Shown piece by piece: positions 7,430-22,174 of a stretch of DNA of 64,000 nucleotides. The stretch lies in NCBI GenBank assembly GCA_028875575.1, contig JAPPDF010000087.1, forward strand, positions 14,147 to 78,146, read 5' to 3'. Made by a program: the position numbers and the translations under genes. The notes beneath the pieces were generated by a model. That model did not search any database, was not told the DNA's origin, and saw nothing but the letters and a program-made list of their open reading frames with translations. Each line of letters begins with the position of its first letter. Positions within the stretch are counted from its first letter, which is position 1. The stretch is from Acidobacteriota bacterium (lineage in GTDB: Bacteria > Acidobacteriota > Terriglobia > Versatilivoradales > Versatilivoraceae).

Positions 7430-7531
7430 GGCCCGCTCAAGGGCAATTCGGTACCGAAGAGGGGCGGATCGAAGGACGACCGGCAAAGTCTATGGTATAA
7501 CTCTGAAAAACATTACAAGGAGGGACGCGTT

Positions 7532-8395: not shown

Positions 8396-8452
8396 GCCGC
8401 AGTTCCCGGCCAGGTTAACGCGGTCGCAGGCCGCAGGTAAACCCGGATCATC

Positions 8453-8953: not shown

Positions 8954-8962
8954 GGCAGCAGT

Positions 8963-9649
8963 TCAGCCGAGCCGAACCAGGGTGACGGCGATATCCCCCC
9001 GAAAACAGGCTTCCACGTCCGTTCCCGGGTCATACCGTCTCCGGTGGTAGTTTCCGTTGTACAGAAAACCGGTGCCTTCCATTCGAAACGTGATCGGAAG
9101 GGGGGACATATCCAAGGGACAGTAGACGGTTTGTGGGTCGGGGCAGCCGGGTTCCAGGTGAGGCAGATTGATATTCCAGAAGGTCCCAGCGGCCCAGGGG
9201 GCCTGTAACAGCTTTCTTAGAAGGGGCCGCACCCATCGGGCCGAGCGGTTCCAGTCGATGGGAAGGTCTTTCTTGCAGTACTGAGAAACGGCGATGCCCG
9301 GCACGCCCTCCAGCACGCCTTCCCGAACGGCCGCTACCGTGCCGGAATAAAAGACATCCGCACCCAGGTTCCCTCCCTGATTGATTCCCGATAACACGCA
9401 ATCGGCATTGGACGCCAGTTGGCGCAGGCCGATACGTACACAGTCGGCGGGCGTTCCCGAGAGGCTGTAGCGCGAGAGGCCGCGAGCCTCCACCCGGATG
9501 GGCTCATGGGTGGTGACTTGGTGGCTGCAGCCCGACAGCGGTTCCTGGGGCGCCCCCACCACGCATCTCCCCAGACCCTCGACCGCCTTGATCAGTGCCT
9601 GGAGCCCGGGGGCATCGAAGCCGTCATCGTTGGTGAGGAGAAATTTCAT
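8963..9649 (-). CDS. surE: 5'/3'-nucleotidase SurE
   Basis: N-terminus MKFLLTNDDGFDAPGLQAL...GTPADCV...SGINQGGNLGADVFYSGTVAAVREG matches the SurE consensus. Confidence 0.9.
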   Translation of the reverse strand: MKFLLTNDDGFDAPGLQALIKAVEGLGRCVVGAPQEPLSGCSHQVTTHEPIRVEARGLSRYSLSGTPADCVRIGLRQLASNADCVLSGINQGGNLGADVFYSGTVAAVREGVLEGVPGIAVSQYCKKDLPIDWNRSARWVRPLLRKLLQAPWAAGTFWNINLPHLEPGCPDPQTVYCPLDMSPLPITFRMEGTGFLYNGNYHRRRYDPGTDVEACFRGDIAVTLVRLG

Positions 9650-9885
9650 GAACAGGAAGTCAAGACAACAGCCGGCGCATTTCCCGGGTGCCTCCGGGCA
9701 GAGTTCTATCCTTCCTGGACCAATATAGCAAGGGGCAGGGCGGGAATTCCTGCAGGAACCGCAGGAGGGGACTGCCGCGTGGCCGGATTTTCACCTGCCG
9801 GCGACTGGTAGACGACCAGCCGCCTTCCGCGCCTAAATGGCTTGACTCATTTTGGGCCAAGATGCTAAACAGACCCGTTCAGCCT

Positions 9886-9961
9886 GGGCGAGTAGCTCAG
9901 ATGGGAGAGCGCGGCGTTCGCAACGCCGAGGTCGAGGGTTCGATCCCCTTCTCGTCCACCA
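9886..9961 (+). tRNA. tRNA-Ala (anticodon CGC), 76 nt including encoded CCA
   Basis: Manual cloverleaf: acceptor GGGCGAG/CTCGTCC, D-arm GCTC-AGATGGGA-GAGC, anticodon stem CGGCG/CGCCG with loop TTCGCAA, and T-arm GAGGG-TTCGATC-CCCTT. The 3' 23 nt are the attL core of the downstream island. Confidence 0.85.
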
Positions 9962-10110
9962 TTTCCCCTTCCCGCCAATTCTTAGAAAATCCCATAAGTA
10001 ACTGATATAAAGGGAGTTATATTCCCTTTTTGTGCTTGCGTGTTCCTGCACAATCCCTTATAATCCTATATAGGTCGTGGGATAAAACGTGGGAGAAGCG
10101 CGGAGGGAAC

Positions 10111-11295
10111 ATGGGCAAGCTCACTGTTGTAAAGGTCAAATCTATCACAGAACCGGGGCGATACGGTGATGGCGGGACGCTGTTTCTGGTCGTTGCGCCC
10201 GGTGGATCGAAGTCCTGGGTGCAACGAATCGCCATCGACGGCAAGCGCCGGGACATTGGCCTGGGCGGCTGGCCGCTGGTGAGTCTGGCCGAAGCCAGAA
10301 TCAAGGCATTTGAGAATCGGAAGCTCGCCAGGGTGGACGGCGGCGATCCGCTGGCCGGGAAACGCAAGGCCAAGATGCCAACTTTCCAGGAGGCCGCCGA
10401 ACGCACATTTAGGGGGCTCAAGCCCAAGTGGCGAAACGCCAAGCACGCGGCGGACTGGTGGAGTTCTGTTGAGAGATACGCCTTTCCGATGGTCGGCAGT
10501 ACTCCGGTTGATCGAGTCCGCCGGGAGGACGTGCTGCGAATCCTGACGCCTATCTGGTCGAGCCGTCCGGAGCGGGCGCGGCGGCTGCGCCAGCGGATCC
10601 GGGCGATTTTTTCCTGGGCGCAAGCACACAACTACATTCCGGGAGAGAACGTGGCCGGCGAGGCAATCTCTGGAGCGCTGCCGACAATGGCGATCGGCAA
10701 AACTCACTTCCGGGCGCTGCCCTATCAGGAGGTCGCCGCGGCGCTTGCAAAGGTGGAGGGGACCAACGCGAGCATGGCCGCCAAGTACTGTCTCCGGTTT
10801 CTGGTATTGACGGCCGCCCGTAGTGGTGAGGCCCGGGAAGCGACCTGGAGCGAGATTGACCTGGACGCGAGAGAATGGCGCATTCCTGGCGAGCGAATGA
10901 AGGGCGGAGCCGAGCATCGGGTACCGCTGTCTGATGCCGCGGTCTCGGTACTGGAGCAGGCCCGGGTGCTGGATGATGGTTCCAGTCTGATTTTCCCTTC
11001 GGCGCTGAGGCCTGGGCGCTGTCTATCCAATATGACTTTAACCAAGCTGCTGCGGTCAACCGGCTTGGCCGAGCGGGCAACTGTGCACGGGTTTAGATCG
11101 AGCTTCCGTGACTGGTGCGGCGAGCGGGCGAATGTACCGCGCGAAATTGCTGAGGCCGCGTTGGCCCATACGGTCGGCGGTGTCGAGGGCGCCTATTTCC
11201 GAAGTGACTTGTTCGCCAAGCGGCGGCAGTTGATGGATCAGTGGGCCGCCTATCTGACCCGAGCTGTCGGGAAGGTGGTGCGGATCCATGGATAA
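10111..11295 (+). CDS. int: site-specific tyrosine integrase (P4-type, N-terminal DUF4102-like arm-binding domain)
   Basis: Catalytic signature HGFRSSFRDW...LAHTVGG...AYFRSDLFAKRR plus an N-terminal arm-binding domain. Lies immediately 3' of the tRNA, with RBS GGAGGG. Confidence 0.9.
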   Translation: MGKLTVVKVKSITEPGRYGDGGTLFLVVAPGGSKSWVQRIAIDGKRRDIGLGGWPLVSLAEARIKAFENRKLARVDGGDPLAGKRKAKMPTFQEAAERTFRGLKPKWRNAKHAADWWSSVERYAFPMVGSTPVDRVRREDVLRILTPIWSSRPERARRLRQRIRAIFSWAQAHNYIPGENVAGEAISGALPTMAIGKTHFRALPYQEVAAALAKVEGTNASMAAKYCLRFLVLTAARSGEAREATWSEIDLDAREWRIPGERMKGGAEHRVPLSDAAVSVLEQARVLDDGSSLIFPSALRPGRCLSNMTLTKLLRSTGLAERATVHGFRSSFRDWCGERANVPREIAEAALAHTVGGVEGAYFRSDLFAKRRQLMDQWAAYLTRAVGKVVRIHG

Positions 11296-11887
11296 GGTGG
11301 AAGCACTGATACGCAAGATACAGACACACCCTGCCTTCCACGGCGGTCCGGCTGATGAAGAATATTGGCTCGACTTTCTTGAGGCGACACTGGCGGAGTT
11401 TGGAACTTACGAGTTCCTGGTTGAGATGCAAGGAGAAGGATTAAGGCGGCGACCGGAGATGTTGGCTTTGTACATCCTTGCATCCCAAGAAGACCGGCTT
11501 GCTTGGGACGTGCTGGAAGCCCTTGTTAGACGACTTCGGCGGGGCGGCAAGCCCTTGCCAAATAGATTGGCTGAATGGTGGATAGATGCCGCAGCGGGGG
11601 TTCTCAAGAAACCGAAAGGAGGCGGGCGGGTTGCTCACCGAAACCGAATGAGGGACCTTGCGATTGCCGCAGCTGTCAACGGTATCCGCGACGTAACTGG
11701 GATACCCTACGAGTTCGATCAACGAATCTCCGCGCATCCTCGGACGGCCTGTCATGTTGTGGCGGAAAGGCTCAACATGAGCTATGGGGCCATCCGTTCA
11801 ATCTGGAGAAACATGAGGCCACATATCGAACGGGCTCGAGACCAAGGCCTCATTCTCCCACCCGGCAAGAAACAACGGCGACGTTAA
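11288..11887 (+). CDS. hypothetical protein (island-encoded)
   Basis: 199-aa ORF overlapping the int stop. No recognisable family; could be a regulator. Confidence 0.45.
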   Translation: MDKVEALIRKIQTHPAFHGGPADEEYWLDFLEATLAEFGTYEFLVEMQGEGLRRRPEMLALYILASQEDRLAWDVLEALVRRLRRGGKPLPNRLAEWWIDAAAGVLKKPKGGGRVAHRNRMRDLAIAAAVNGIRDVTGIPYEFDQRISAHPRTACHVVAERLNMSYGAIRSIWRNMRPHIERARDQGLILPPGKKQRRR

Positions 11888-11992
11888 CACCCTAAAACTA
11901 CTACCCCATATTTTCGGTATGTACCCGTGCGGGAAAGTTGGGCATTGTTTGGGAAAGCGGTGGATTTTCTGATCTCGAGAACTGGAGGAAAT

Positions 11993-12199
11993 ATGATTGA
12001 CCGACTTTTGACCCGAACGGAGGTAGAGCGGCGCTGTGGACTTGCCCGATCGACGGTCTACCGATTGATGAGGCAAAACTTGTTTCCTCTACCTTTGAAA
12101 CTTGGTGGAAAGGCCGTCCGCTGGCCTCAATCTGAAATTGAATCCTGGATCGCAAGCCGGCCCCGCGCAACTGGCGAGGGCTCCCGCGTGTCTGCCTGA
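11993..12199 (+). CDS. alpA: AlpA-family phage transcriptional regulator / excisionase-like HTH protein
   Basis: MIDRLLTRTEVERRCGLARSTVYRLMRQNLFPLPLKLGGKAVRWPQSEIESWIASRP matches the AlpA family. RBS GGAGG. Confidence 0.85.
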   Translation: MIDRLLTRTEVERRCGLARSTVYRLMRQNLFPLPLKLGGKAVRWPQSEIESWIASRPRATGEGSRVSA

Positions 12200-12254
12200 G
12201 CGCACAAAAAAAGCCCCAGGATGGCAGCCCGGGGCTGGCACGACGGTATGACCT

Positions 12255-13571
12255 ATGGACGGTGAGAGTAACACGTCTGCGGCCGACAAGCAACGGCCGG
12301 GGCGGGATGGACGTTTACCCGTCCAGGACGATAAAGGCAAGTGGCGATACTTCAACCTGGATCCGAGCGATTACGGCTACTATGCGCCGAACCTGGATGA
12401 TGCAACGCTGGTTCAATGGATCATCGAGGAAAAAGACCGGACCATCCGCTACCTGTTTGATACGGCCGAGGCCCGCGCCGACAATCCCACCTTTGAAGAG
12501 CTCCACCTTCCCGTTACCGCGGAACCGATCGAGCGCCAACCGTGCATCCTGGAGCGGTCCGATGGGGCCGCCATTCTGTATGCCGGCCGTTTTTCAACGT
12601 TGCACGGTGAGCCGGGCTGCGGCAAGTCCTGGGTGGCCCTGATTGCCGCCGGCAAGGCCATCGAGCGCGGCGGCCGGTGTCTCTGGATGGATTGCGAAGA
12701 TAGGCCCGGAACTGTGGCGACGCGGGCCGGCCCCTTGGGCCTGCTGGAGTCTGTCACCAATACGGACCGCTTCCGCTTTTACAATGCCCCGGAACTAATC
12801 GAGTCCAATGCCATCAAGGGCGAGGCCCTGGGGTGGTTGCTGACGGCCCCGGCCCCGCGCTTTTCCCTGGTGGTGATCGACAGCGCCGAAACCTGGGGCG
12901 GTGGCGGCCATGCTTCGGATGATGTAAATCCTTGGTTGGACAAGGCTGTTGATCCCTGGCGCAAGGCCGATGTTGCGGTCCTGCTGGTGGATCACATCCC
13001 AAAGCGCGAAAAGGACCGGCCCGCGGGGCCGATCGGAAGCCAAACCAAGCGCGCCAGGGTGGACGGTGCGGCCCTGCGGGTGGAAGGCGGCCGGCCCTAC
13101 CTGGACCGCAACCGACAGTTGCGATTTACCGGCGGACCGTGGACCAAAACCAAGGGCGGGCACGTCACCTTGCTGAACGAAAAAGACCGCATTGGCGACC
13201 TGGAGGCCGGGATGGGGCGGCCCATTGCGACCTTGGCCGGATCCTGGGACGCAAGCGGCGGTTTTGCCTGGGAGTTGGCCGCGCCCAAGGTCGAGGCCGA
13301 CACTGGAACCGAAGCCGAAGCGGGCGATATGGAAACGGTCTATGAGGCCATCAAGGCGGCCGGGCTGGAGGGGATCCGCGGAATTACCGCTGTGCAGGAG
13401 GCGGCCGGGATTCGGCGGTTCAAGGTGATTGAGGCCGTCCGGGGACTCGTGGAAGCTGGCCGGATCGAAAAGGAAAAGCAGGGGCGCGGATGGGTCTACC
13501 GGGTGGACGGCGGGGGCCTGACGCAAGAGGAAAAGGCCGAAGTTCAGGCCGCAATAGACTATGGGGATTAG
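12255..13571 (+). CDS. replication ATPase (RepA / AAA_25-like, RecA-fold P-loop) with C-terminal winged-helix
   Basis: Walker A GEPGCGKSW and Walker B LVVIDSAE, characteristic of plasmid/PICI replicative initiator-helicase loaders. The iteron array lies immediately downstream. Confidence 0.75.
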   Translation: MDGESNTSAADKQRPGRDGRLPVQDDKGKWRYFNLDPSDYGYYAPNLDDATLVQWIIEEKDRTIRYLFDTAEARADNPTFEELHLPVTAEPIERQPCILERSDGAAILYAGRFSTLHGEPGCGKSWVALIAAGKAIERGGRCLWMDCEDRPGTVATRAGPLGLLESVTNTDRFRFYNAPELIESNAIKGEALGWLLTAPAPRFSLVVIDSAETWGGGGHASDDVNPWLDKAVDPWRKADVAVLLVDHIPKREKDRPAGPIGSQTKRARVDGAALRVEGGRPYLDRNRQLRFTGGPWTKTKGGHVTLLNEKDRIGDLEAGMGRPIATLAGSWDASGGFAWELAAPKVEADTGTEAEAGDMETVYEAIKAAGLEGIRGITAVQEAAGIRRFKVIEAVRGLVEAGRIEKEKQGRGWVYRVDGGGLTQEEKAEVQAAIDYGD

Positions 13572-13700
13572 CGGTTCCGAGCGGTTCCGGGAACCGTTGT
13601 TTAGCGGTTCCGCCGGTTCTACGGTTCCCTAAAGGAACCGGAACCGGGAACCGATAAGCGGAAACAGGGCAAAATCATCAAGACGCGGGAACCGATAGCG
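13569..13700. promoter_or_regulatory. putative replication origin: ~10 iterons of CGGTTCC / GGAACCG in both orientations
   Basis: Direct reading of GCGGTTCCGAGCGGTTCCGGGAACCG...GCGGTTCCGCCGGTTCTACGGTTCCCTAAAGGAACCGGAACCGGGAACCG...GCGGGAACCG. SaPI/PICI ori sites sit 3' of rep in the same way. Confidence 0.6.
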
Positions 13701-13711
13701 AGGGGGTAACA

Positions 13712-14011
13712 ATGCCGACACCGAAGGGAAGCCGCTGGAGCCAATCACTGAGGCGGAACATGATGGCAGAACGCAACGGACGGACGGCCGACTGTGACGC
13801 GCTGGCGCTGCCCCTGGTCCGGTTGTGTCGGTCGCAAGGCTTCACCTTCGAGGAAACCGCGGCCGAGCTCGATAGGGCCGGACTCCCCACTTGCCGCACT
13901 CTGAGCCAGGGCAAGGCTTATCGGTGGTGCGCGGGGTCGGTGCGCAATCTCTGCCGCCGGCACGGGCTGGCGACGGCGAGGCGGAGCAAGCTGGACTGGA
14001 TAAGGGCGTGA
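13712..14011 (+). CDS. putative small terminase subunit / HTH DNA-binding protein
   Basis: 99-aa ORF directly upstream of terL with a predicted HTH (GFTFEETAAELDRAGL). The assignment rests on position and is tentative. Confidence 0.35.
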   Translation: MPTPKGSRWSQSLRRNMMAERNGRTADCDALALPLVRLCRSQGFTFEETAAELDRAGLPTCRTLSQGKAYRWCAGSVRNLCRRHGLATARRSKLDWIRA

Positions 14012-14075
14012 TGGCACCGGCGGCGGATTGCTTGGGGGTCGCACCTCGCCACGGGGGCTTTCTGTGTAACTCGAA

Positions 14076-15503
14076 ATGAATCAGCTTCGACGATTTCAAA
14101 GGCGGTTTCTGGCACGGGCGACAGCTCGCGGGGTCGATACGGCCGTGCTGTGTCTACCCCGTGGTAACGGGAAATCCTGGCTGGCGGGACACTTGGCGGC
14201 GCGGGTTCTGTCTCCGGCCGATCGTCTATTCCGTCCTGGGACTGAGTCGGTCTTGTGCGCGGCCTCGATCGAGCAGGCCAGGATAGTCTTTCGGTTTGTG
14301 CGCGCAATCCTGGAACCAAGGGGCGGCTATCGGTTTTTGGACAGCAACACGCGAATAGGGATCACACACACGGCCAGCAATACTAAGCTGCGGGTGATCG
14401 GATCGAACGGCAAGACGGCCATGGGCCTTGTCGGTTGCCCCTGGGTGATTGCCGACGAACCTGGGGCCTGGGAAGTGAGGGGCGGGACGTTGGTTCATGA
14501 CGCCATCGAAACCGCCAAGGGAAAGCCGGGCTCACCACTCCGCGCCGTCTACATAGGGACGCTGGCGCCATCAACGGGCGGCTGGTGGCACGATCTGGTT
14601 AAGGACGGATCGGGGCCGGGCGTGTACGTGCAGGTGCTGCAGGGGGATCGCAAGACCTGGGACCGCTGGCCAACCATCCGCAAGGCAAACCCACTGACGG
14701 CGATATCGGCAGACTTCCGGGCCAAGCTACTACAGGAGCGGGACGCAGCAAGGCGGGACACTCGGCTAAAGGCTCGGTTTCTGTCCTACCGGTTGAACAT
14801 CCCGACAGCCGACGAAAGCGAGGTCTTGCTGACGGTGGAGGATTGGGAGCGAGTGACGGCCAGGGCGGTCCCGGATCGGGAAGGCCTGCCGATGTTCGCC
14901 TATGACTTGGGCGGCGGCCGCGCATGGTCCGCGGCGGTGGCGCTGTGGCGCAACGGCCGAACCGAAGCCCTGGCGGTTGCCCCTGGAATTCCCTCGCTGG
15001 AAGATCAGGAGAAACGGGACCGCGTACCGGCTGGCCTCTACCGCAAGCTGGAGGAATCCGGCCGGCTGCTGGTTGCCGATGGGTTCCGGGTTCCGGCGCC
15101 GGCATTCCTTCACGGTTCGGCCGTGGCGGCCTGGGGCGGCCCCGATTGCATCCTGTGTGATCGCTTCCGCCTTCCCGAGCTGGCGGACGCGGTGAACGGT
15201 GCGCGGCTGGTTCCAAGAGTTACGCGGTGGAGCGAGGCGAGCGAGGATATCAGGGGCCTGCGGAAGCTGGCGGCCGATGGGCCGCTGTCGGTGGAAACCG
15301 GATCGCGGGATCTGTTGACGGCCTCTCTGTCGGTGGCCATGGTTAAAAACGACGATCAAGGCTCGGTCCGGTTGGTCAAGCGGGGATCGAATAACACGGC
15401 GCGGGATGATGTGGCGGCGGCCTGGCTGCTGGCTGCCGGCGCGTTGTCGCGGTGGATCCGCCGGCCCCGACGTCCTCGCTGGCGCTATCGAGGGGCGGTG
15501 TGA
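14076..15503 (+). CDS. terL: phage terminase large subunit (TerL)
   Basis: Walker A LPRGNGKSW, an ATPase domain and a C-terminal nuclease-like domain typical of TerL. Its stop overlaps the HNH start (TGATG). Confidence 0.85.
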   Translation: MNQLRRFQRRFLARATARGVDTAVLCLPRGNGKSWLAGHLAARVLSPADRLFRPGTESVLCAASIEQARIVFRFVRAILEPRGGYRFLDSNTRIGITHTASNTKLRVIGSNGKTAMGLVGCPWVIADEPGAWEVRGGTLVHDAIETAKGKPGSPLRAVYIGTLAPSTGGWWHDLVKDGSGPGVYVQVLQGDRKTWDRWPTIRKANPLTAISADFRAKLLQERDAARRDTRLKARFLSYRLNIPTADESEVLLTVEDWERVTARAVPDREGLPMFAYDLGGGRAWSAAVALWRNGRTEALAVAPGIPSLEDQEKRDRVPAGLYRKLEESGRLLVADGFRVPAPAFLHGSAVAAWGGPDCILCDRFRLPELADAVNGARLVPRVTRWSEASEDIRGLRKLAADGPLSVETGSRDLLTASLSVAMVKNDDQGSVRLVKRGSNNTARDDVAAAWLLAAGALSRWIRRPRRPRWRYRGAV

Positions 15504-15796
15504 TGGATCGGGCGGGCTCGAGGTTCTATGCCAGCATCCGGGGCCGGCGCTGGGATCGGGTCCGCCGGCGCGAACTCAAGCGCACCGGCTACCGCTGCGA
15601 GCGGTGCGGCAAGGCTGGCCGTCTCGAGGTCCACCACAAGCGGCCGCTGCACCGGGGCGGGGATGCCTACGCGGCCGATAACCTGGCCGTCCTTTGTCGG
15701 CGCTGTCATATTGAGGCGCACCGGCGACCCCTGAGTGATGAGGCGCAACGGTGGGCCGACCTGCTGAGGGGGGTTTTTCTTGCAGGGAAGATTTAA
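15503..15796 (+). CDS. HNH endonuclease (packaging-associated)
   Basis: Zinc-finger HNH motif CERCG...LEVHHKRPLHRGG...NLAVLCRRCH. HNH endonucleases next to terminase are typical of HK97-like and cf-PICI packaging modules. Confidence 0.85.
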   Translation: MDRAGSRFYASIRGRRWDRVRRRELKRTGYRCERCGKAGRLEVHHKRPLHRGGDAYAADNLAVLCRRCHIEAHRRPLSDEAQRWADLLRGVFLAGKI

Positions 15797-15832
15797 CAAT
15801 TGTATATTATTTGTAGATTTCGAGAGGGCAAG

Positions 15833-16294
15833 ATGAAAAAAAAGCCAATTCGATACCACGTCCAAATCAACGGAGACGGGAAGGGCGGCCCGGCAATGAT
15901 GGCAGACGGCACTCCCGAGGGCGAAATTCTGGAGGTCGCGCCGGTAACGACCGTTCGGGTAAATCGTGAAACCCGAAACTTGATTGACCGGTGCGGGCGG
16001 TTGCTGTCGGAATTGCCGGAGCCGCAACGGTCAAACCTGCGCTTTGTACTGTGCGCGACCGGCGGCGCCGTCCCGGCCCCTGGGGCGAAAATTCCCGCTG
16101 GTGAGGTCATTCATTACGCACTCGCGGCCCTCGAGGCAAACCTGGACCCCCAGGCGCGGGCGCAGCGCGAGGCCGCAGAAATGGCATATCAAAACTACCT
16201 GGAGCACTTGAGGAATGCGCACAAGGTCCGGGACGGGGTTGCGCGTGACGCGGACGGAAACCCCATTCCGGATCGAATTTCGGATGGGGAGTAA
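15833..16294 (+). CDS. hypothetical protein (island-encoded)
   Basis: 153-aa ORF between HNH and capsid with no recognisable family. Confidence 0.4.
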   Translation: MKKKPIRYHVQINGDGKGGPAMMADGTPEGEILEVAPVTTVRVNRETRNLIDRCGRLLSELPEPQRSNLRFVLCATGGAVPAPGAKIPAGEVIHYALAALEANLDPQARAQREAAEMAYQNYLEHLRNAHKVRDGVARDADGNPIPDRISDGE

Positions 16295-16324
16295 CGGAAG
16301 TCAGTTTTTCATGGAGGGTCGATC

Positions 16325-17617
16325 ATGACCAATTCGCAACGGCTGGCCGTCCGACTGTCGGAGATCCGGCAACGGCTGAATGAGATTGCAGGGCTGGAGG
16401 GTGACGCCTTCACCGACGAAATCCGGCAGGAAGCCGACCGGCTGCAAACCGAGTTCCGGGCCAAGGAAACGCAGTATCGGGCGGCCTTGGTAGCCGAGGG
16501 CGAGTCCGAAAGCCGGGCCCTGGAAACCGAGCCGGACGCCGAGCGCCGGGAGCGCCTGGAGCTGCGCAGCCGGGCCAACCTGTCGGCCTACCTACGGGCG
16601 GCGCTGTCGGGCCGGAGAGTGGACGGAGCCGAACGGGAGTTGCAGGAGGCCGCCGGCATCGGGGACGGCATCCCAATCGAGCTATGGGACACGGTGGCCC
16701 CGGAGGAACGGGCCGAGCATCGGCAGGGTGACGCGGCAACGGCTGCCCCTGGGACGGTCGGGGTCAACCTGGACCGGATCAGGCCGGCCGTGTTCGCGCA
16801 GTCTATCCTCCCGGGACTTGGGGTGGAAATGCCCCGAGTCGAGTCCGGCACCTACGCAAGCGCCACGATTACCACGTCCCTGACGGCCGCCAGCAAGGCC
16901 AAGGGCGCGGCACAGGAAGCCACCGCGGCGGCCTTCACGGTGACGTCGGTTACTCCCAAGCGGATCAGCGCCAGGTTGGGGATTCGGATTGAGGACGTGG
17001 CGGCCATAGGTCAAGGAAATTTCGAACCAATTTTGCGCGAAAATTTATCCCTGGTCCTGTCGGACGAATTGGACAAGCAAGGGCTGAACGGGGCCGGCAG
17101 CAATTCCGGGGCGGATCTGGTGGGCTTGTTTCACCGATTGACGGATCCAAGCGCCCCGGACACCTTGGCCACGTTCGACCTTTTCGCTGCGGCCCTGGCC
17201 GGCGGGGTTGATGGCCTTTGGGCGCTGAGTCAAAGGGACGTGGCGCTGCTGGTGGGGCCGGACACCTATCAGTTGGCCGGAAAGACCTTTCAATCGGCCG
17301 CCAATTACAAGGGCGAGCTTTCGGCCGCGTCCTACCTGATGGCCCAATCCGGAGGCTTCAAGACCAACAAGCGGATGCCGGACGCAGCCAACAAACTCCA
17401 GCAAGGCATCCTCTTTCGGATGGGACGGTCCATGATGGGCGGGACCGGAGCCATGCGGACGGCGGTTTGTCCCCACTGGAACGAAATTTCAATCAACGAC
17501 ATTTACAGCGGGAGCGCCAAGGGTGAGCGGTTCTTTACAATGCACGTCCTGCTCGGGGACGTGATCCTGGTTCAGCCGGACGCTTACTCTCAAATCGCTT
17601 TCAAGGTCGCGGCCTAA
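16325..17617 (+). CDS. phage major capsid protein, HK97 family (with N-terminal coiled-coil delta/scaffold-like domain)
   Basis: N-terminal ~120-aa coiled coil followed by an HK97-fold-like region (GVNLDRIRPAVFAQSILPGLGVEMPRV...FTVTSVTPKRISARLGI...). Size and placement within the head module fit an HK97 MCP. Confidence 0.7.
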   Translation: MTNSQRLAVRLSEIRQRLNEIAGLEGDAFTDEIRQEADRLQTEFRAKETQYRAALVAEGESESRALETEPDAERRERLELRSRANLSAYLRAALSGRRVDGAERELQEAAGIGDGIPIELWDTVAPEERAEHRQGDAATAAPGTVGVNLDRIRPAVFAQSILPGLGVEMPRVESGTYASATITTSLTAASKAKGAAQEATAAAFTVTSVTPKRISARLGIRIEDVAAIGQGNFEPILRENLSLVLSDELDKQGLNGAGSNSGADLVGLFHRLTDPSAPDTLATFDLFAAALAGGVDGLWALSQRDVALLVGPDTYQLAGKTFQSAANYKGELSAASYLMAQSGGFKTNKRMPDAANKLQQGILFRMGRSMMGGTGAMRTAVCPHWNEISINDIYSGSAKGERFFTMHVLLGDVILVQPDAYSQIAFKVAA

Positions 17618-17720
17618 AGGGGCCGCGCTGGCGCTGCGGCCGCGCCTGCTGGCGTTTCTAAGGCTCCAGGGTGGTCTATACCTCCGAGACCATCCTGGGG
17701 CCGTTTTTGCAGGATTTGCC

Positions 17721-18191
17721 ATGGGATCTGTCCTGATAAGCGGTCCGGCCGGGGCTGGCAAGAGCCAGGAAGCCAAGCGCCGGCGCGATGCGGCCAGCCG
17801 TCCGACGGTGGTTGCAGACTTTCAATCCCTGGTTGTGGCCATGCTCCAGCAAGAGCGCGGTCCGGATGGGAAGTATCCAGAGCGGCCGGAATGGATCCTG
17901 CCCCTTGCCGAGTACACGAGGCGGGCCGTTATCACGGCGGCGCGCAAGCGCGGGATTGACGTGGTAGCAACCAATTCTGACGGGGATCCCGGCCGGCGGC
18001 GGTTCCTGCTGGAGATCCTGGGGCCGCGGCGGGAAGATTTTGGCCCGGCCCTGGAGGGTACGGAGGAAGTCATTGTGGATCCGGGCGAAGAAGTGATAGC
18101 GCGGCGGCTGGCCGGGAAGTCGGGGCGGCTGTCGAGGGCCTGCAAGCAAGCGTCCGATCGGTGGTATAGACGCCTTCCGGGGCGGCGGTAG
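17721..18191 (+). CDS. P-loop NTPase / kinase-like protein (AAA_33 / zeta-toxin-like fold)
   Basis: Walker A GPAGAGKSQ at the N-terminus. It is a small 156-aa protein in an unusual position inside the head module. Confidence 0.55.
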   Translation: MGSVLISGPAGAGKSQEAKRRRDAASRPTVVADFQSLVVAMLQQERGPDGKYPERPEWILPLAEYTRRAVITAARKRGIDVVATNSDGDPGRRRFLLEILGPRREDFGPALEGTEEVIVDPGEEVIARRLAGKSGRLSRACKQASDRWYRRLPGRR

Positions 18192-18671
18192 GTGAGCATG
18201 GAACACGAAAGCCGAACGGTTGAAATCCGGTTTGAGTCTGATGCCGAGCGCATGAGTCCCGGCCGCCTGGTGGGCGTCTTGCTGCCCTACGGCGAGCGGG
18301 CGAGCGACCGGCCGGAAGTGTTTGAGGCCGGGGCCTTGCATTGGCCGGCCGATGGCGTCTTGCTGAGGGCCATGCACAAGCGGCAAGATCCCATTGCGCG
18401 GTTCATTCCCGAGGCCACGGAAACCGAGGTCCGGGTATCGATCGAGCTGCCGGACACCACGGCCGGCAGGGACGCGGCCACAAACGTCCGGGCGGGTGTC
18501 CTGCGGGGCCTGTCTGTTGAGTTCCGGGCCGAAAAGGAGACGCGCCGGGACGGGCTGCGGGTAATCCAGCGGGCGCGCCTGGTGGGCGCTGGTCTGGTGG
18601 ATTCGGGGGCCTACTCGGGCGCAACGGTGGAGGCCAGGGGCAAGGCCAAGAGGCGGCGGTTATGGCTGTAA
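18192..18671 (+). CDS. HK97-family phage prohead protease (peptidase S78/U35)
   Basis: Sequence pattern VEIRFESDAERMSPGRLVGVLLPYGERASDRPEVFEAGAL...GLSVEFRA is typical of prohead maturation proteases. Confidence 0.7.
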   Translation: MSMEHESRTVEIRFESDAERMSPGRLVGVLLPYGERASDRPEVFEAGALHWPADGVLLRAMHKRQDPIARFIPEATETEVRVSIELPDTTAGRDAATNVRAGVLRGLSVEFRAEKETRRDGLRVIQRARLVGAGLVDSGAYSGATVEARGKAKRRRLWL

Positions 18672-18976
18672 CGATTACGGCCGAGGAACTGCGGCAACGA
18701 GTGTCCGGGGTGGCCGAAACACACGCGGCGCAGCTTCGGAAAGTGGCAAAGGCGATAGTTGAGGCCGAGGCGCCGAACGCGCCGTCATGCGTTCAGAATG
18801 AAGCCGTGGTGAGGCTTGCTGGCTACCTGGCCCAATCCGATTTCGGCGGGATTGTGGAGGAGGAGCTGGGAGCGAAGCGGGTCGAGTATGCCGTCAACCA
18901 TGCGGCCATGTTTCACCGATCCGGGGCCAAGGGATTATTGAGCCGGTGGAAGCGCCGGCGAGCTGGGGCGATATGA
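18662..18976 (+). CDS. phage head-tail connector (gp6-like) protein
   Basis: ~100-aa gp6-like protein placed between protease and portal. Its stop overlaps the portal start (ATGA). Confidence 0.55.
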   Translation: MAVTITAEELRQRVSGVAETHAAQLRKVAKAIVEAEAPNAPSCVQNEAVVRLAGYLAQSDFGGIVEEELGAKRVEYAVNHAAMFHRSGAKGLLSRWKRRRAGAI

Positions 18977-20049
18977 TCGAGCTGGGGATTTCACAATTCA
19001 GGCCGGAGCGGCGGCAATCGGGCGGGAGCTTCACCGATGCCGTTGTGCGGTTGCTGGAAGCTCAAGCGGCCGGGACGGCGGCAAGCACCGGATCAACGGC
19101 CGCGGTCGAGGCGGCTGCCGGCGCACTCTCCCGGGCCCTGGCGGCGGCTGAGGTCTCGGGGCCTGAGTGGGCGACCGGGGCGGTGTCTGCCGAGTTCCTG
19201 GGGCAAGTCGGGCGCGACCTGGTGAGGTCGGGTCAATCCCTGCACGTCCTGGACGTGGACAACGCGGGGCGGGTATCCCTTCTGCCGGCGGCAAGCTGGC
19301 ATTTCGAGGGATCGGCCCATCCGTCAAGCTGGAGCGTTCGGGCCACGGTCTACGGACCATCAACGTCCGTCACTCGCCACTTGCCCTTTTCGGGGGTCGT
19401 GTTTGTCAAGTGGGGGTCCACTCCCGGCCAGCGGTACACAGGGACCGGGCCGCTATCCTGGGCCAATATCACGGCACGACTGCAATCGGAGTCCGAGCGG
19501 TCCCTGGCCGACGAGGCCGGCGGGCCGATTGCCAATCTGCTGGCCATCCCTCAGGACGGCGGGGACGGGACCGACGAGGATCCCTTGAAGGAACTGAAGG
19601 CCGATCTCCGGACGGCCAGGGGCAAGGCGCTGTTGCTGGAAACCACGGCGGCCGGTTGGGGCGATGGCAGGCTGTCGGCCCCTCAAAGGGACTGGAAGGC
19701 CGAGCGGTTGGGGCCGGCGCCGGCGGCCGGGCTGGTACAAGTCCGGGCCGATGCCTTTAAGGCCGTCCTGGCCGCTGCTGGGTGTTCGGTCGCCATGTTT
19801 GATGATTCCGACGGCACAAGCAAGCGAGAAGCCCTGCGGCAGTTCTTTCTAGGGACCGTGCAACCGCTGGCCCGGATGTTGCAGGCCGAGCTCGCGGCCA
19901 AGCTGGAAGCGCCGATCCGGCTGGGCTTCGATCTTTACAACGTGGACCTGGCCGGCCGGGCACAGTCGTTTCAGAAGTTAGTCGCGGGCGGGATGGACCT
20001 TGCCAAGGCGGCAGGATTGGCTGGGTTGATGGACATGGAGGCCGGTTAA
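18973..20049 (+). CDS. phage portal protein, HK97 family
   Basis: The C-terminal region (LLAIPQDGGDGTDE...SVAMFDDSDGTSKREALRQFFLGTVQPLARMLQAEL) matches the conserved portal clip/wing motifs. Start taken at the ATGA overlap (the track ORF begins at 18946). Confidence 0.7.
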   Translation: MIELGISQFRPERRQSGGSFTDAVVRLLEAQAAGTAASTGSTAAVEAAAGALSRALAAAEVSGPEWATGAVSAEFLGQVGRDLVRSGQSLHVLDVDNAGRVSLLPAASWHFEGSAHPSSWSVRATVYGPSTSVTRHLPFSGVVFVKWGSTPGQRYTGTGPLSWANITARLQSESERSLADEAGGPIANLLAIPQDGGDGTDEDPLKELKADLRTARGKALLLETTAAGWGDGRLSAPQRDWKAERLGPAPAAGLVQVRADAFKAVLAAAGCSVAMFDDSDGTSKREALRQFFLGTVQPLARMLQAELAAKLEAPIRLGFDLYNVDLAGRAQSFQKLVAGGMDLAKAAGLAGLMDMEAG

Positions 20050-20117
20050 CCGATACCGGTTCGTTCCCTTAGGGACAGAGCTAGGCACACCTTCGGGGCC
20101 AAGCTATAATTTCGGCA

Positions 20118-20966
20118 ATGAAACGAATGTGTTGTGTCAACCTGTTGGGCGGACTGGCCCTGTCTATATTGACCCTTACTCTCTGGTGGCATTGGGATTG
20201 GGTCGTGTCGTCCTCAGGGGAGTCCGGCTCAACGATCCTTCGAAACCTTGGGCTCGTATACGGTGGTCTCATTGCGATTTGGGTAGCCCTCTGGCGTGGT
20301 GTGGTGGCTGATCGACAGGCGGAGGCTTCCAGAGTCCAAGGCGAATCCTCCATGCAGCTAGCGAAGGCTGCCGAAGTCCAAGCTGATACTTCGCAGCGCG
20401 GGCTACTGAACGAGCGTTACCAAAGGAGCGCAGAAATGCTTGGCAGCAAGGTGATGGCTGTCCGCTTGGGAGGCATATTTGCGCTGCATCGTTTGGGCAA
20501 ACACGACCCAGAGCAATACCATGTCCAAACAATGCGGCTATTGAGTTCGTTCGTGTGCTACCCAACTGAGGAAGCTAGATCAACGGACCGCGAGGATGTT
20601 CGGGTCGCATTGGCGGTTATCGGTACCCGGAACAAAGCCGATATTGCACTTGAGAGGAAAGAGGCATATCGTGTGTTCCTGATTTCTGCAGACCTGTCCA
20701 ACATGATCCTGCGAGGGCCAAACCTGACCGGTGCGAAGCTGATAGGTGCAAACCTAACCAATACATTTTTGGGCACGGCCAACCTAACCGGTGTCCACCT
20801 ATTCGACGCGAATCTGACCAGGACGGATCTCTCCCGAACGAGAGGCCTAACCCAATTTCAGCTCGATGAAGCGTGCGCTGATCCAGCCGGTCCACCCAAG
20901 TTAGGTAGCCTTTGTGATGCCAGAACTGGTGAGCCTTTAGTTTGGAATGACAATCCTTGCAGTTAG
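20118..20966 (+). CDS. membrane-anchored pentapeptide-repeat protein (island cargo gene)
   Basis: Two N-terminal TM helices followed by consecutive pentapeptide repeats (ADLSNMILRGPNLTGAKLIGANLTNTFLGTANLTGVHLFDANLTRTDLSRT). Its GC is visibly lower (~50%) than the surrounding ~64%. Confidence 0.7.
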   Translation: MKRMCCVNLLGGLALSILTLTLWWHWDWVVSSSGESGSTILRNLGLVYGGLIAIWVALWRGVVADRQAEASRVQGESSMQLAKAAEVQADTSQRGLLNERYQRSAEMLGSKVMAVRLGGIFALHRLGKHDPEQYHVQTMRLLSSFVCYPTEEARSTDREDVRVALAVIGTRNKADIALERKEAYRVFLISADLSNMILRGPNLTGAKLIGANLTNTFLGTANLTGVHLFDANLTRTDLSRTRGLTQFQLDEACADPAGPPKLGSLCDARTGEPLVWNDNPCS

Positions 20967-21078
20967 CCCTTGGCGGAGCAAGTGCTCCGTTCGGCTCTGG
21001 CATTCGTGGGATCAAACGTGGTAAAAATTTGATTAGGTTTTTCTTAAATGACTTTATATCAGTTTGTTAGACTGATCA

Positions 21079-21101
21079 TTCGATCCCCTTCTCGTCCACC
21101 A
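21079..21101 (+). repeat. attR: 23-bp direct repeat of the tRNA-Ala 3' end
   Basis: TTCGATCCCCTTCTCGTCCACCA is identical to 9939..9961. Confidence 0.85.
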
Positions 21102-21621
21102 AACTCCATCCCAAGAAAGTCCGAGCGGTTCTGGTATTACCCTATAATCAACGTTTTAAAATCTTCAGCCGACCATTCCCATCCAACATTCCCATCTGAT
21201 AGCCCGGGGTAACTGACGGCCGGTCAGTTACGGGAAAAAGTCGCCCCCACCGTACGGCGCAGCGATATTAGCATTCGTCGGGCTCAGTCTGCCAAATCAT
21301 CCGGAAAATTGTTGGACGGAGGCTTCTCGTGTCTCGGAGTGCTCCACTCGTCCGGAAGTAGCTGACCGCACGGTGCTTACGGTCACCGTAAGTGCTTTTG
21401 CCGGCACCTACTCCTCCTGTAATTGCGTTTCAACCCACCGTAGGCCAATTCCCCGGGCGCGTTTCATTCCGGCTGCCATCGCGTCCACCGACAATGGGCG
21501 TTTTTTCCGTCAGCACTGGCGCGAGAACTGGTCGGAAGGGCAGAACAGCCAGGTTGGATTTACCAATCAGTTCCGGTATGCCTTACTATCTGTAGGATCA
21601 GAACTTCAGAGAAATAGGAAC

Positions 21622-21846
21622 ATGCAACTCTCAATGATTACAAGGCGCGGCCAGACGACCATCCCCAAGCGCATCCGTGAGGCGGCCAACCTGCACGTTG
21701 GTGATGTGATTTCTTTCGAGATCGAGGACGATCATCTAGTGGTACGCAAGGTGACGCCGGGGCAGGACAACTATCTGAAGTCTCTCTCCAAGGTTCTTGA
21801 CGAATGGTCCTCGCCCGAAGACGAGCATGCGTGGCGTGATCTTTGA
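21622..21846 (+). CDS. mazE: MazE/AbrB/SpoVT-family antitoxin
   Basis: MQLSMITRRGQTTIPKRIREAANLHVGDVISFEIEDDHLVVRKV is a swapped-hairpin AbrB/MazE motif. It overlaps the downstream toxin gene. Confidence 0.8.
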   Translation: MQLSMITRRGQTTIPKRIREAANLHVGDVISFEIEDDHLVVRKVTPGQDNYLKSLSKVLDEWSSPEDEHAWRDL

Positions 21847-22174
21847 GCCCCTCGATGTAGCCGTCGTCCCTTTTCCCTTCACCGACCGCCGACGCACGAA
21901 ACGCCGGCCGGCCCTGATAGTCTCATCGGCAATCTTCAATCGGACTCATGAACAATCCATCCTGGCAATGATAACCACAGCCGGGCGCGATTGGCCGAGC
22001 GACGTAGCAATTCAGGGCTGGCGGCAGGCCTGCCTCAATGTTCCTTGCAAGGTCCGCTTCAAGCTCTTCACCCTGGATGATGCTCTGATTGTCCGTAAGC
22101 TCGGGGCGTTGTCGAAACAAGATGGGGAAGCGATGAAGAGAGCCCTCGGGCACGTCGTGGCAGGCAGTGTGTAG
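21827..22174 (+). CDS. mazF: MazF/PemK-family mRNA interferase toxin
   Basis: PemK/MazF pattern VVPFPFTDRRRTKRRPALIVS...AMITT...VRFKLFTLDDALIVRKLG, with a 20-bp overlap on mazE. Confidence 0.8.
   Translation: MRGVIFEPLDVAVVPFPFTDRRRTKRRPALIVSSAIFNRTHEQSILAMITTAGRDWPSDVAIQGWRQACLNVPCKVRFKLFTLDDALIVRKLGALSKQDGEAMKRALGHVVAGSV

What the first reader, a model, noticed from the sequence alone, without database searches (positions are those of the whole stretch)
9886..21101. tRNA-Ala-integrated ~11 kb element with the gene repertoire of a capsid-forming phage satellite (cf-PICI-like), apparently in an Acidobacteria/PVC-like host
Sequence: a 23-bp exact direct repeat of the tRNA-Ala 3' end brackets 11.2 kb. 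In one orientation this segment carries int, a 199-aa ORF, alpA, a RecA-fold rep ATPase with downstream iterons, a candidate TerS, TerL, HNH, an HK97 MCP, a P-loop protein, a prohead protease, a gp6-like connector and an HK97 portal. Translational-coupling overlaps occur at TGATG (terL/HNH) and ATGA (connector/portal). There are no tail, baseplate, lysis or DNA-polymerase genes.

Established knowledge: PICIs are ~10-15 kb and tRNA- or att-integrated. They encode int, alpA and pri-rep with a 3' iteron ori. The capsid-forming subclass encodes its own HK97 head and packaging module, including HNH, and hijacks only helper-phage tails.

Inference: this is a cf-PICI-like satellite rather than a decayed prophage, because the module is compact and intact and the missing functions are specifically the tail and lysis functions. 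To my knowledge such satellites have been described mainly in Proteobacteria and Firmicutes, so one in this lineage would be new.
Basis: partly seen in the sequence, partly recalled or inferred. Interest (0 to 1): 0.85.

Follow-up and report, generated by a model that had tools for sequence, protein, structure and literature searches.

The report
Capsid-encoding tail-less integrative satellite element
An 11-kb mobile island in a tRNA gene of an uncultured Acidobacteriota bacterium carries genes to build and fill a virus head but none for a tail, like the known capsid-forming phage satellites, and belongs to a large unnamed family found in bacteria labelled as seven phyla.

Summary
An exact 23-bp copy of the tRNA-Ala(CGC) 3' end (9939-9961, 21079-21101) brackets an 11.14-kb one-strand gene set. 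A conspecific contig has the tRNA joined directly to the sequence beyond attR, so this is a discrete insertion.

Profile and fold evidence supports:
- integrase, AlpA, and an AAA_25 replication ATPase with a 9-copy iteron origin;
- TerL, HNH, an HK97-family capsid protein, an S78 protease and a portal;
- a gp6-fold head-to-tail adaptor.

No tail or lysis gene was detected in the element or the 64-kb window. The TerS call is unsupported (orphan ORF). No head-closure or neck gene was found, although some relatives carry them.

At least 30 related elements, mostly 10-11 kb and tRNA-bounded, share the order terL-HNH-capsid-protease-adaptor-portal. This differs from the order reported for proteobacterial cf-PICIs. 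They sit in genomes labelled Acidobacteriota, Gemmatimonadota, Alpha- and Gammaproteobacteria, Actinomycetota, Spirochaetota and Binatota. Capsid and portal are 55-71% identical across them and match none of 50,697 phage genomes.

Best reading is a new lineage of capsid-forming, tail-dependent phage satellites. Helper dependence is inferred, not shown.

The parts
9886..9961 (+). tRNA-Ala(CGC), the integration target; it stays intact because its 3' end is duplicated by the insertion
   Evidence: ARAGORN
9939..9961 (+). attL core: 23-bp direct repeat, equal to the tRNA 3' end
   Evidence: Exact repeat; none expected by chance
10111..11295 (+). Tyrosine integrase (394 aa from the ATG; the open frame begins at 10030)
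   Evidence: PF13356, PF22022 and PF00589; phrog_1 E 5e-46; start taken from the gene call
11288..11887 (+). 199-aa ORF of unknown function; overlaps the int stop
   Evidence: No Pfam, PHROG or NCBIfam hit; weak homologs in L012, L023 and L032 at the same position
11993..12199 (+). AlpA-family HTH regulator/excisionase (open frame from 11927)
   Evidence: PF05930 E 1.8e-16; phrog_66 E 8e-14
12255..13571 (+). Replication initiator candidate: RecA-fold AAA_25 ATPase, 438 aa. A C-terminal winged-helix DNA-binding domain is inferred by eye only.
   Evidence: PF13481 E 5.9e-11; weak RecA/RadB matches
13572..13694 (.). Iteron-type origin candidate: 9 exact CGGTTCC/GGAACCG heptamers in both orientations
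   Evidence: 9 of the window's 40 copies lie within 123 bp
13712..14011 (+). Orphan ORF (83-99 aa) in the position where a TerS would be expected; function unknown
   Evidence: No profile hits; only itself in the protein database
14076..15503 (+). Large terminase subunit
   Evidence: phrog_9 E 5e-37 over residues 6-459; PF20441 weak; 24-29% identity to phage TerLs
15503..15796 (+). HNH endonuclease, translationally coupled to terL through the TGATG overlap
   Evidence: PF01844 E 6e-11; phrog_144 E 2e-16
15800..16294 (+). 153-164-aa ORF of unknown function; variable among relatives
   Evidence: No hits; no similarity to relatives' head-closure or neck proteins
16325..17617 (+). HK97-family major capsid protein with a helical N-terminal, delta-like region
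   Evidence: 29 of 34 family members hit PF05065 (best E 1.6e-6). The 82-sequence profile's top 8 and 11 of its top 12 PDB hits are capsid proteins including HK97 gp5. hhalign against gp5 gives 64% probability, E 6e-5. N-terminal helices are seen in the otherwise poor model.
17721..18191 (+). Small P-loop protein (Walker A GPAGAGKS); accessory, present in only 2 relatives
   Evidence: AAA_33 E 9e-4, below cutoff; homologs in L023 and L029
18198..18671 (+). Prohead (S78, HK97-type) serine protease
   Evidence: PF04586 E 3e-8; phrog_80 E 2e-13; TIGR01543 E 6e-9
18662..18976 (+). Head-to-tail adaptor (HK97 gp6 / SPP1 gp15 fold), 104 aa
18973..20049 (+). Portal protein (358 aa from the ATG in the ATGA overlap)
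   Evidence: PF04860 E 1.2e-8 (35 bits, cutoff 39.1); phrog_12 E 8e-7; 38-71% identical in 29 related loci
20118..20966 (+). Cargo: pentapeptide-repeat protein with a hydrophobic N-terminus; lower G+C (0.55)
   Evidence: PF00805 E 2e-12; no homolog in related loci; composition
21079..21101 (+). attR core: second copy of the 23-bp repeat
   Evidence: the empty site in L004 joins the tRNA to 21102-21120

Best explanation
This is an intact member of a large, apparently undescribed family of ~10-11 kb tRNA-integrating elements that behave like capsid-forming phage satellites.

**Shown here**
- The element is a discrete insertion bounded by a 23-bp duplication of the tRNA-Ala 3' end.
- It encodes a tyrosine integrase, an AlpA regulator and an AAA_25 ATPase next to an iteron cluster.
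- It also encodes a head-and-packaging set: TerL, HNH, an HK97-family capsid protein with an N-terminal helical region, an S78 protease, a gp6-fold adaptor and a portal.
- No tail or lysis gene was detected in it.

**Inferred mechanism**
1. After induction, AlpA and the integrase excise an 11.14-kb circle.
2. The ATPase fires the iteron origin.
3. The capsid protein assembles on the portal into a small procapsid, which the protease matures.
4. TerL with HNH cuts and packages unit-length DNA.
5. The adaptor on the portal offers a docking surface for tails made by a co-resident or co-occurring tailed phage, giving an infectious particle.

The conserved ~10-11 kb size fits a small-capsid headful limit.
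For: **Discrete and recently mobile**
- Exact att repeats.
- A conspecific empty site.

**Gene functions**
- Profile hits.
- Capsid family evidence.
- Iterons.
- Translational coupling.

**No tail or lysis module**
- None in the element, its flanks or the remaining window.

**Family level**
- 29 genome loci plus 2 IMG/VR contigs share int-alpA-(variable rep)-terL-HNH-capsid-protease-adaptor-portal.
- In 10 loci, tRNA-derived repeats bracket 9.8-10.8 kb. In several of them the tRNA lies 0.2-1.1 kb past the portal, leaving no room for tails.
- Some relatives additionally carry head-closure and Neck1 genes. These are parts that only make sense if a tail is attached.
- The capsid and portal have no tblastn match in 50,697 phage genomes. 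This parallels the separation of cf-PICI head genes from phage genes.
- One relative assembles as a 13.6-kb circle.
- A more distant relative is an 8.7-kb head-to-tail repeat with no tail genes, in a scaffold whose name points to CsCl-purified sponge viromes.

**Published criteria**
- Size, modules and absence of tail and lysis genes match the published cf-PICI search criteria.
Against: - No helper phage, induction, particle or transfer has been observed. Satellite behaviour rests on gene content and analogy.
- No TerS could be identified; the candidate ORF is an orphan.
- No head-closure or neck protein was found in this copy.
- Four ORFs are unannotated, so a cryptic function such as lysis cannot be excluded.
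- Capsid and portal assignments rest on modest E-values, and the capsid structure prediction failed.
- No attP junction was found in public contigs, though that search has very low power.
- Only 97 kb of the host genome is available, so a helper prophage could not be sought.
Confidence: 0.7

Rival explanations
1. The family are satellites, but this particular copy is crippled. It lacks a recognisable TerS, head-closure and Neck1 gene, so it may excise and replicate but cannot make stable, tail-competent heads. Alternatively it can do so only by borrowing these parts from a helper.
For: - Head-completion (PF05521) or Hc1/Ne1-like genes exist in relatives but have no homolog in the window.
- The TerS-position ORF is an orphan.
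Against: - About half of the related loci also leave no room for a gene between adaptor and portal, so the minimal layout is common rather than a one-off loss.
- All core ORFs are intact and translationally coupled.
- The att repeats are identical, and a conspecific empty site argues for recent activity.
- Three unannotated ORFs could supply the missing parts.
Confidence: 0.13
2. An autonomous tail-less capsid vehicle. The element makes DNA-filled heads that reach new cells without any phage tail, for example by uptake of released capsids, so it is a minimal virus-like or GTA-like agent rather than a satellite.
For: - No tail gene was found in any att-bounded family member.
- Integrase-less 8.7-13.6 kb circular or concatemeric relatives look like self-contained genomes.
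- Known cf-PICIs do release tail-less capsids.
Against: - The element keeps a portal-bound gp6-fold adaptor, and relatives keep head-closure and Neck1 proteins, whose known role is tail attachment.
- From general knowledge, no portal-containing HK97-type particle is known to infect without a tail.
- No lysis or entry function was identified.
Confidence: 0.1
3. A decayed prophage remnant: the head half of a former HK97-like temperate phage whose tail and lysis genes were deleted.
For: Integrase next to a tRNA and phage-type head genes are also what a prophage remnant would show.
Against: - Exact att repeats enclose exactly the compact module.
- The element is precisely absent in a conspecific.
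- The same ~10-11 kb layout recurs in at least 30 loci across phyla with intact genes.
- It has its own plasmid-like ATPase and iteron origin.
- No phage genome has related capsid or portal genes.
Confidence: 0.04

Closest known systems
Capsid-forming PICIs (cf-PICIs; EcCIEDL933, KpCIDSM30104, EcCIGN02175)
   Same: - Size class, 10-18 kb.
- Site-specific integration.
- int, alpA and a replication module.
- Own HK97-type capsid, protease, portal, adaptor, HNH and TerL.
- No tail or lysis genes.
- Head genes far from those of sequenced phages.
   Different: - Gene order is (orphan ORF)-terL-HNH-x-capsid-x-protease-adaptor-portal. Proteobacterial cf-PICIs run capsid-protease-portal-connectors and then hnh-terS-terL. 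The full gene orders of the two Firmicutes groups were not retrieved, so they were not compared.
- No TerS or connector was identified in this copy.
- The replication protein is an AAA_25 ATPase, not a recognised primase-replicase.
- It is smaller: 11.1 kb against 15.5 kb for the T=4 EcCIEDL933.
- Hosts are uncultured Acidobacteriota and other phyla rather than Proteobacteria and Firmicutes.
- Sequence relatedness to cf-PICI proteins was not tested directly.
Classical PICIs / SaPIs
   Same: Integrase, AlpA-type regulation (in Gram-negative PICIs), a replication initiator with an adjacent iteron origin, ~10-15 kb, and accessory cargo at the end.
   Different: Classical PICIs remodel helper-encoded capsids and lack their own capsid, portal, adaptor and TerL. 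SatelliteFinder treats portal and head-tail genes as forbidden for PICI.
Marine VEIMEs (virion-encapsidated integrative mobile elements)
   Same: Small integrative elements of uncultured marine bacteria; found as concatemers in virus particles.
   Different: [quoted passage not shown] This family encodes a full head.
Phage HK97 head module (gp2-gp7, plus HNH gp74)
   Same: - HNH-assisted terminase.
- Portal and S78 protease.
- Capsid protein with a built-in N-terminal assembly domain.
- gp6-fold adaptor.
   Different: - Sequence similarity is only at the profile level.
- Different gene order.
- No gp7, gp10 or gp11, and no tail or lysis genes.
- The genome is about 3.5-fold smaller.
Satellite P4
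   Same: About 11-kb integrative satellite of comparable genome size.
   Different: From general knowledge, P4 uses the helper P2 capsid protein, redirected by Sid, and encodes no capsid, portal or terminase. Nothing P4-like was detected here.

Membership tests
cf-PICI (criteria of He et al. 2025 preprint and SatelliteFinder) | Size about 10-18 kb, chromosomally integrated at a specific site | tested here: met
   11,140 bp between the att repeats in tRNA-Ala; empty site in a conspecific
cf-PICI | Integrase or other site-specific recombinase | tested here: met
   PF13356, PF22022 and PF00589; phrog_1 E 5e-46
cf-PICI | AlpA-type regulator | tested here: met
   PF05930 E 1.8e-16
cf-PICI | Replication module (primase-replicase plus origin) | tested here: inconclusive
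   An AAA_25 ATPase (E 5.9e-11) and a 9-copy iteron cluster are present. No primase domain was seen. SatelliteFinder's pri-rep profiles could not be run.
cf-PICI | Own major capsid protein (HK97 fold) | tested here: met
   - PF05065 hit in 29 of 34 family members.
- PDB profile hits to HK97-type capsid proteins.
- hhalign against gp5, E 6e-5.
- The structure model failed.
cf-PICI | Prohead protease | tested here: met
   PF04586 E 3e-8; phrog_80 E 2e-13
cf-PICI | Portal protein | tested here: met
   PF04860 E 1.2e-8, slightly below Pfam's cutoff; phrog_12 E 8e-7. Conserved at the same position across the family.
cf-PICI | Head-tail adaptor | tested here: met
cf-PICI | Head-tail connector (head closure) | tested here: not met
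   No homolog of the relatives' PF05521/Hc1-like or Neck1-like proteins in the window. Such genes are present in some relatives.
cf-PICI | HNH endonuclease in the packaging module | tested here: met
   PF01844 E 6e-11, coupled to terL
cf-PICI | Small terminase | tested here: inconclusive
   The ORF at 13712-14011 is in a plausible position but has no profile hit and no homolog. The ORFs upstream of terL in relatives are not conserved.
cf-PICI | Large terminase | tested here: met
   phrog_9 E 5e-37
cf-PICI | Absence of tail and lysis genes | tested here: met
   None detected by Pfam or PHROGs in the element or flanks. Four ORFs remain unannotated.
cf-PICI | Gene order of, and relatedness to, one of the three described clades | tested here: not met
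   The order differs from the proteobacterial arrangement described in the preprint. The full order of the two Firmicutes groups was not retrieved, so only their reported starts could be compared. Direct sequence comparison with cf-PICI proteins was not possible with the tools at hand.
cf-PICI | Production of small capsids and transfer that depends on helper-phage tails | not testable with these tools
   Needs induction, electron microscopy and transduction experiments in an uncultured host.
Complete temperate prophage | Tail, lysis and immunity modules within the att-bounded unit | tested here: not met
   Only 11.1 kb lies between the att sites; no such genes.
Classical PICI | No own portal, head-tail or TerL genes; uses helper capsid proteins | tested here: not met
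   Portal, adaptor, TerL and capsid protein are all encoded.

The most novel reading that the evidence does not exclude
One capsid/portal lineage, 55-71% identical at the protein level and absent from all 50,697 sequenced phage genomes searched, is carried by ~10-kb integrative elements. These sit in chromosomes labelled as seven phyla, including Actinomycetota alongside Acidobacteriota, Gemmatimonadota, Proteobacteria, Spirochaetota and Binatota. Many of the source records have sponge- or marine-associated names.

The most novel reading is that these are tail-pirating satellites whose conserved head docks onto tails of unrelated local phages. The more variable adaptor and neck genes would mediate the docking. 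That would make them a cross-phylum gene-transfer vehicle in dense host-associated communities, much broader than the cross-genus spread shown for enterobacterial cf-PICIs.
Probability: 0.35. Interest if true: 0.85.

Novelty: new variant of a known kind. Interest (0 to 1): 0.62.

Why it matters
- **Reach of the strategy.** Capsid-forming satellites have so far been documented in Proteobacteria and Firmicutes, mostly in cultured pathogens. This element shows the same strategy in uncultured Acidobacteriota, with a gene order unlike the proteobacterial one and head genes not found in any sequenced phage.
- **Scale of the family.** It belongs to a family of hundreds of capsid-protein clusters spread over several phyla.
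- **A possible transfer route.** If these elements do borrow tails, they are a candidate for a major overlooked route of gene exchange across very distant bacteria in marine and sponge microbiomes. The conserved head with a variable adaptor and neck would be a natural system for studying head-tail compatibility.
- **Annotation.** These loci are almost all labelled 'hypothetical' and are nearly absent from IMG/VR, where the pattern scan found 2 hits.

Tried and rejected
- **Capsid structure prediction.** AlphaFold2 on the 34-sequence alignment failed (pLDDT 42.8). I used a deeper 82-sequence profile against the PDB and HK97 gp5 instead.
- **Sequence searches of solved structures.** Single-sequence and shallow-profile PDB searches found nothing useful for the capsid, portal, TerL or adaptor. 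hhalign of the adaptor against gp6, and of the head-closure and Neck1 alignments against HK97 gp7 and gp10, had no power. Foldseek against BFVD gave only weak adaptor hints.
- **The ~9-11 kb contigs.** I first read the many contigs of this size carrying capsid homologs as possible free elements. They are low-coverage long-read contigs, so their length is an assembly property. I dropped that argument.
- **TerS.** There are no hits for the candidate, no homologs, and no conserved upstream-of-terL gene across relatives.
- **attP junction.** An exact search in JGI metagenomes and IMG/VR gave 0 hits. This is uninformative, because the source sample is probably not in those collections.
- **Promoter and terminator scan.** Nothing above chance.
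- **A third att copy.** None exists that would make the MazEF region a tandem island.
- **Other kinds considered and rejected.** Gene transfer agent (this element has an integrase and att sites and is strain-variable), encapsulin (it has a portal and TerL), and a P4-like element (nothing P4-like was detected).

Full report
**1. The observation**

The window holds one tRNA gene, tRNA-Ala(CGC) at 9886-9961 on the + strand. Its last 23 nt (9939-9961) recur exactly at 21079-21101. With up to three mismatches there is no third copy, and shuffles gave none. The copies are 11,140 bp apart.

Between them every substantial gene lies on the + strand. Directly after the stop of the 438-aa ATPase gene, nine exact CGGTTCC/GGAACCG heptamers sit within 123 bp (13572-13694). 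The whole window has 40 copies against 15.6 expected.

**2. What the genes are**

Clear Pfam and PHROG calls:
- a tyrosine integrase with arm-binding, central and catalytic domains;
- an AlpA regulator (E 1.8e-16);
- an AAA_25 RecA-fold ATPase (E 5.9e-11);
- a large terminase (phrog_9, E 5e-37);
- an HNH endonuclease;
- an S78 prohead protease;
- a pentapeptide-repeat protein.

The portal reaches PF04860 at E 1.2e-8, just under Pfam's cutoff, and phrog_12 at E 8e-7.

The capsid protein alone is marginal (PF05065, E 0.0076). Family-level evidence supports it:
- 29 of 34 family members hit PF05065, best E 1.6e-6.
- For an 82-sequence profile, the top 8 and 11 of the top 12 PDB hits are capsid proteins, including HK97 gp5 (best E 1.9e-4).
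- hhalign against gp5 gives 64% probability, E 6e-5.
- The structure prediction failed (pLDDT 42.8), but it shows a confident helical N-terminal ~100 residues. That fits an HK97-style assembly (delta) domain.

The 'candidate TerS' (13712-14011) has no profile hit and no homolog but itself in 5.8 billion protein clusters. orf199, orf164 and the P-loop protein also remain unassigned.

**3. Surroundings**

| Side | Genes |
|---|---|
| Upstream | PntAB, a metallophosphoesterase, MsrB, an M2 peptidase, rhodanese, SufE, SurE |
| Downstream | MazE/MazF, a nucleoside hydrolase, a DUF255 thioredoxin, ThiG, a secretin, and further ordinary host genes to 64 kb |

There is no tail or lysis module anywhere in the window.

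The sequence comes from a 97-kb metagenome scaffold. NCBI labels its proteins 'MAG... [Acidobacteriota bacterium]'.

**4. It is a discrete, recently mobile unit**

A contig from another sequencing run (L004) is 99.76% identical to window 7100-9961. After the intact tRNA-Ala it continues with window 21102-21120. That is exactly the sequence that follows attR here.

After those 19 bp the two strains differ again. L004 has an OLD-family ATPase plus a UvrD helicase, and the window has MazEF. The tRNA-Ala neighbourhood is therefore a variable spot.

**5. The family**

*Size.* The capsid protein has at least 1,967 relatives at 90% clustering. Among 1.84 billion 50%-identity representatives it has 2,550, of which 567 are below E 1e-30. 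Nearly all are unnamed.

*Architecture.* A scan of one genome per species returned 29 loci, and IMG/VR returned two. tblastn with the element's proteins shows the same order almost everywhere: int, (small ORF), alpA, variable replication genes, terL, HNH, capsid, (variable), protease, adaptor, (optional gene), portal.

*Boundaries.* Ten loci have tRNA-derived direct repeats of 13-52 bp, or tRNA-adjacent repeats, that bracket 9.8-10.8 kb. Two larger elements measure 12.5 and 14 kb. At least seven different tRNA isoacceptor types are used as targets. In several loci the tRNA lies only 0.2-1.1 kb beyond the portal gene, which leaves no room for tail genes.

*Conservation.* Identity to the window's proteins across related loci:

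| Protein | Median identity | Range |
|---|---|---|
| Capsid | 60% | 55-70% |
| Portal | 63% | 38-71% |
| Integrase | 46% | 25-63% |
| HNH | 45% | 34-55% |
| Adaptor | 44% | 36-60% |
| Protease | 37% | 34-55% |
| TerL | 33% (bimodal) | 26-69% |

The window's rep, orf99, orf164 and cargo have no counterparts at all.

*Hosts.* The record labels cover:
- Gemmatimonadota (Longimicrobiales);
- Alpha- and Gammaproteobacteria;
- Actinomycetota (Candidatus Spongiisociaceae);
- Spirochaetia;
- Candidatus Binatia;
- with the window, Acidobacteriota.

Several loci lie in 2-6 Mb chromosome-scale assemblies, so they are not binning artefacts. Many record names point to sponge or marine sources (SB06xx, APA, Langseth, Spongiisociaceae, ROBB21, JAHN19). 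I did not verify the habitats.

*Relation to phages.* The capsid and portal have no tblastn match in 50,697 phage genomes. TerL matches only at 24-29% identity.

**6. Neck genes**

In about half of the loci a gene sits between adaptor and portal. In L021 it is a head completion protein (PF05521, E 7.9e-9), and two others give weak hits.

L038 lies on a 4.81-Mb contig and its capsid is 78% identical to the window's. There, the two genes just upstream of terL match head closure Hc1 (phrog_939 E 9e-10; phrog_501) and 'tail completion or Neck1' (phrog_222, E 2e-8). They have homologs in L007/L020 and in L023/L024/L028.

Proteins of this kind act at the head-tail joint. Their presence in tail-less elements is the strongest internal argument that the heads are meant to receive tails. 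The window copy has no detectable homolog of either.

**7. Free forms**

- The IMG/VR contig L034 (13,632 bp) has a 55-bp terminal overlap, so it assembled as a circle. It has no tyrosine-integrase match.
- L037 is a circularly permuted long-read contig.
- A more distant relative, L041, is an 18-kb scaffold holding a head-to-tail repeat. To the window it shows TerL 56%, capsid 34% and portal 24% identity.
  - The period is 8,703 bp, 100% identical over 5.7 kb.
  - The unit is terL-HNH-capsid-protease-portal-117 aa-AAA_25 rep, with no integrase or tail genes.
  - Its record name (JAHN19, SAMN10953138) suggests the CsCl-purified sponge viromes of Jahn et al. (10.1101/608950). I could not verify that link.
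- I had first read the many ~10-kb contigs carrying capsid homologs as free elements. They are low-coverage long-read contigs, so this was discarded.

**8. Mechanism**

*Shown:* the anatomy above and a strain-level insertion polymorphism.

*Inferred from the known roles of these families:*
1. AlpA and integrase excise an 11.14-kb circle.
2. The AAA_25 ATPase fires replication at the iterons, probably through a C-terminal winged helix.
3. The capsid protein, with its own N-terminal assembly domain, builds a small procapsid on the portal, and the S78 protease matures it.
4. TerL with HNH performs HK97-style cos cleavage and packaging.
5. The adaptor caps the portal and recruits a tail from a helper phage.

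The tight 10-11 kb size distribution fits a capsid-capacity limit. For comparison, the 15.5-kb EcCIEDL933 fills a T=4, 47.5-nm capsid. I put this at about 0.7.

The main alternatives are that this copy is incomplete (0.13), that transfer is tail-independent (0.10), or that it is a prophage remnant (0.04).

**9. Comparison with known systems**

cf-PICIs are defined by three features:
- a size of 10-18 kb;
- no tail or lysis genes.

Here nine of the eleven core components are met. TerS is inconclusive, and the connector was not found in this copy. The gene order differs from the proteobacterial arrangement, which runs capsid-protease-portal-connectors and then hnh-terS-terL. The preprint passages I read give only the start of the operon for the two Firmicutes groups, so those orders were not compared in full.

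cf-PICIs are already thought to have arisen three times independently. The cautious classification is a further lineage of the same functional kind, not a member of a described clade.

Classical PICIs and marine VEIMEs lack capsid genes. Searches of the held literature found nothing on satellites in Acidobacteriota or on cfPICI in metagenome-assembled genomes.

**10. Verdict**

I class it as a new variant of a known kind.

Interest is moderate to high. A specialist would not be surprised that more capsid-forming satellites exist. A single capsid/portal lineage shared at ~60% identity by elements integrated in genomes of seven phyla, and absent from known phages, is unexpected. It makes the 'tail piracy' idea testable at cross-phylum scale.

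Noticed in passing
L004 1815-5898 (conspecific contig) versus window 21121-24400: Right after tRNA-Ala plus 19 shared bp, the other strain carries a Gabija-like pair: an OLD/AAA_15-TOPRIM ATPase of 674 aa and a UvrD helicase of 682 aa. At the same place the window has a low-GC (0.53-0.55) stretch with MazE/MazF. The tRNA-Ala neighbourhood is a variable defence/TA hot spot independent of the 11-kb element.
   Followed up: partly
window 21120-21134 and 13576-13590: TCCGAGCGGTTCTGG begins at 21120, one base before the point (21121) where the window and the empty-site contig diverge. It is a 14/15 match to TCCGAGCGGTTCCGG inside the element's iteron origin. This could be chance or a scar of an earlier related element.
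   Followed up: no
L041 1-16360 (ENA ERZ23493635, JAHN19-1_SAMN10953138 scaffold_17); also L042, L043: An 8,703-bp unit (terL-HNH-capsid-protease-portal-117 aa-AAA_25 rep) is repeated head to tail. It has no integrase or tail genes. The scaffold name suggests a purified sponge virome. TerL is 56% identical to the window's.
   Followed up: partly
L034 (IMGVR_UViG_2617270816_000001, 13,632 bp); L037 (9,977 bp): L034 has a 55-bp terminal overlap, so it is a circular assembly, and it has no tyrosine-integrase match. L037 is circularly permuted: it starts with the protease and ends with the capsid gene. These may be episomal or excised forms of family members.
   Followed up: partly
L038 6394-7229; L023 7320-7757; L024 7294-7731; L028 6848-7303: Some relatives carry head-closure (Hc1-like) and Neck1/HK97-gp10-like genes immediately upstream of terL rather than next to the adaptor. 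Neck genes therefore occupy different positions in different family members.
   Followed up: partly
window 5411-7429 (+): A bacterial angiotensin-converting-enzyme-like peptidase (Peptidase_M2, E 4e-229) lies in the host flank.
   Followed up: no
window 29675-32008 (-): A secretin with N-terminal TPR repeats and a C-terminal cohesin domain, which is an unusual domain combination.
   Followed up: no
window 20118-20966 (+): The element's cargo gene encodes a pentapeptide-repeat protein with a hydrophobic N-terminus. It has lower G+C (0.55), a sigma-70-like site just upstream (20082-20110, 10 of 12 matches) and no counterpart in relatives. Its function, possibly anti-phage or host-interaction, is unknown.
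   Followed up: no
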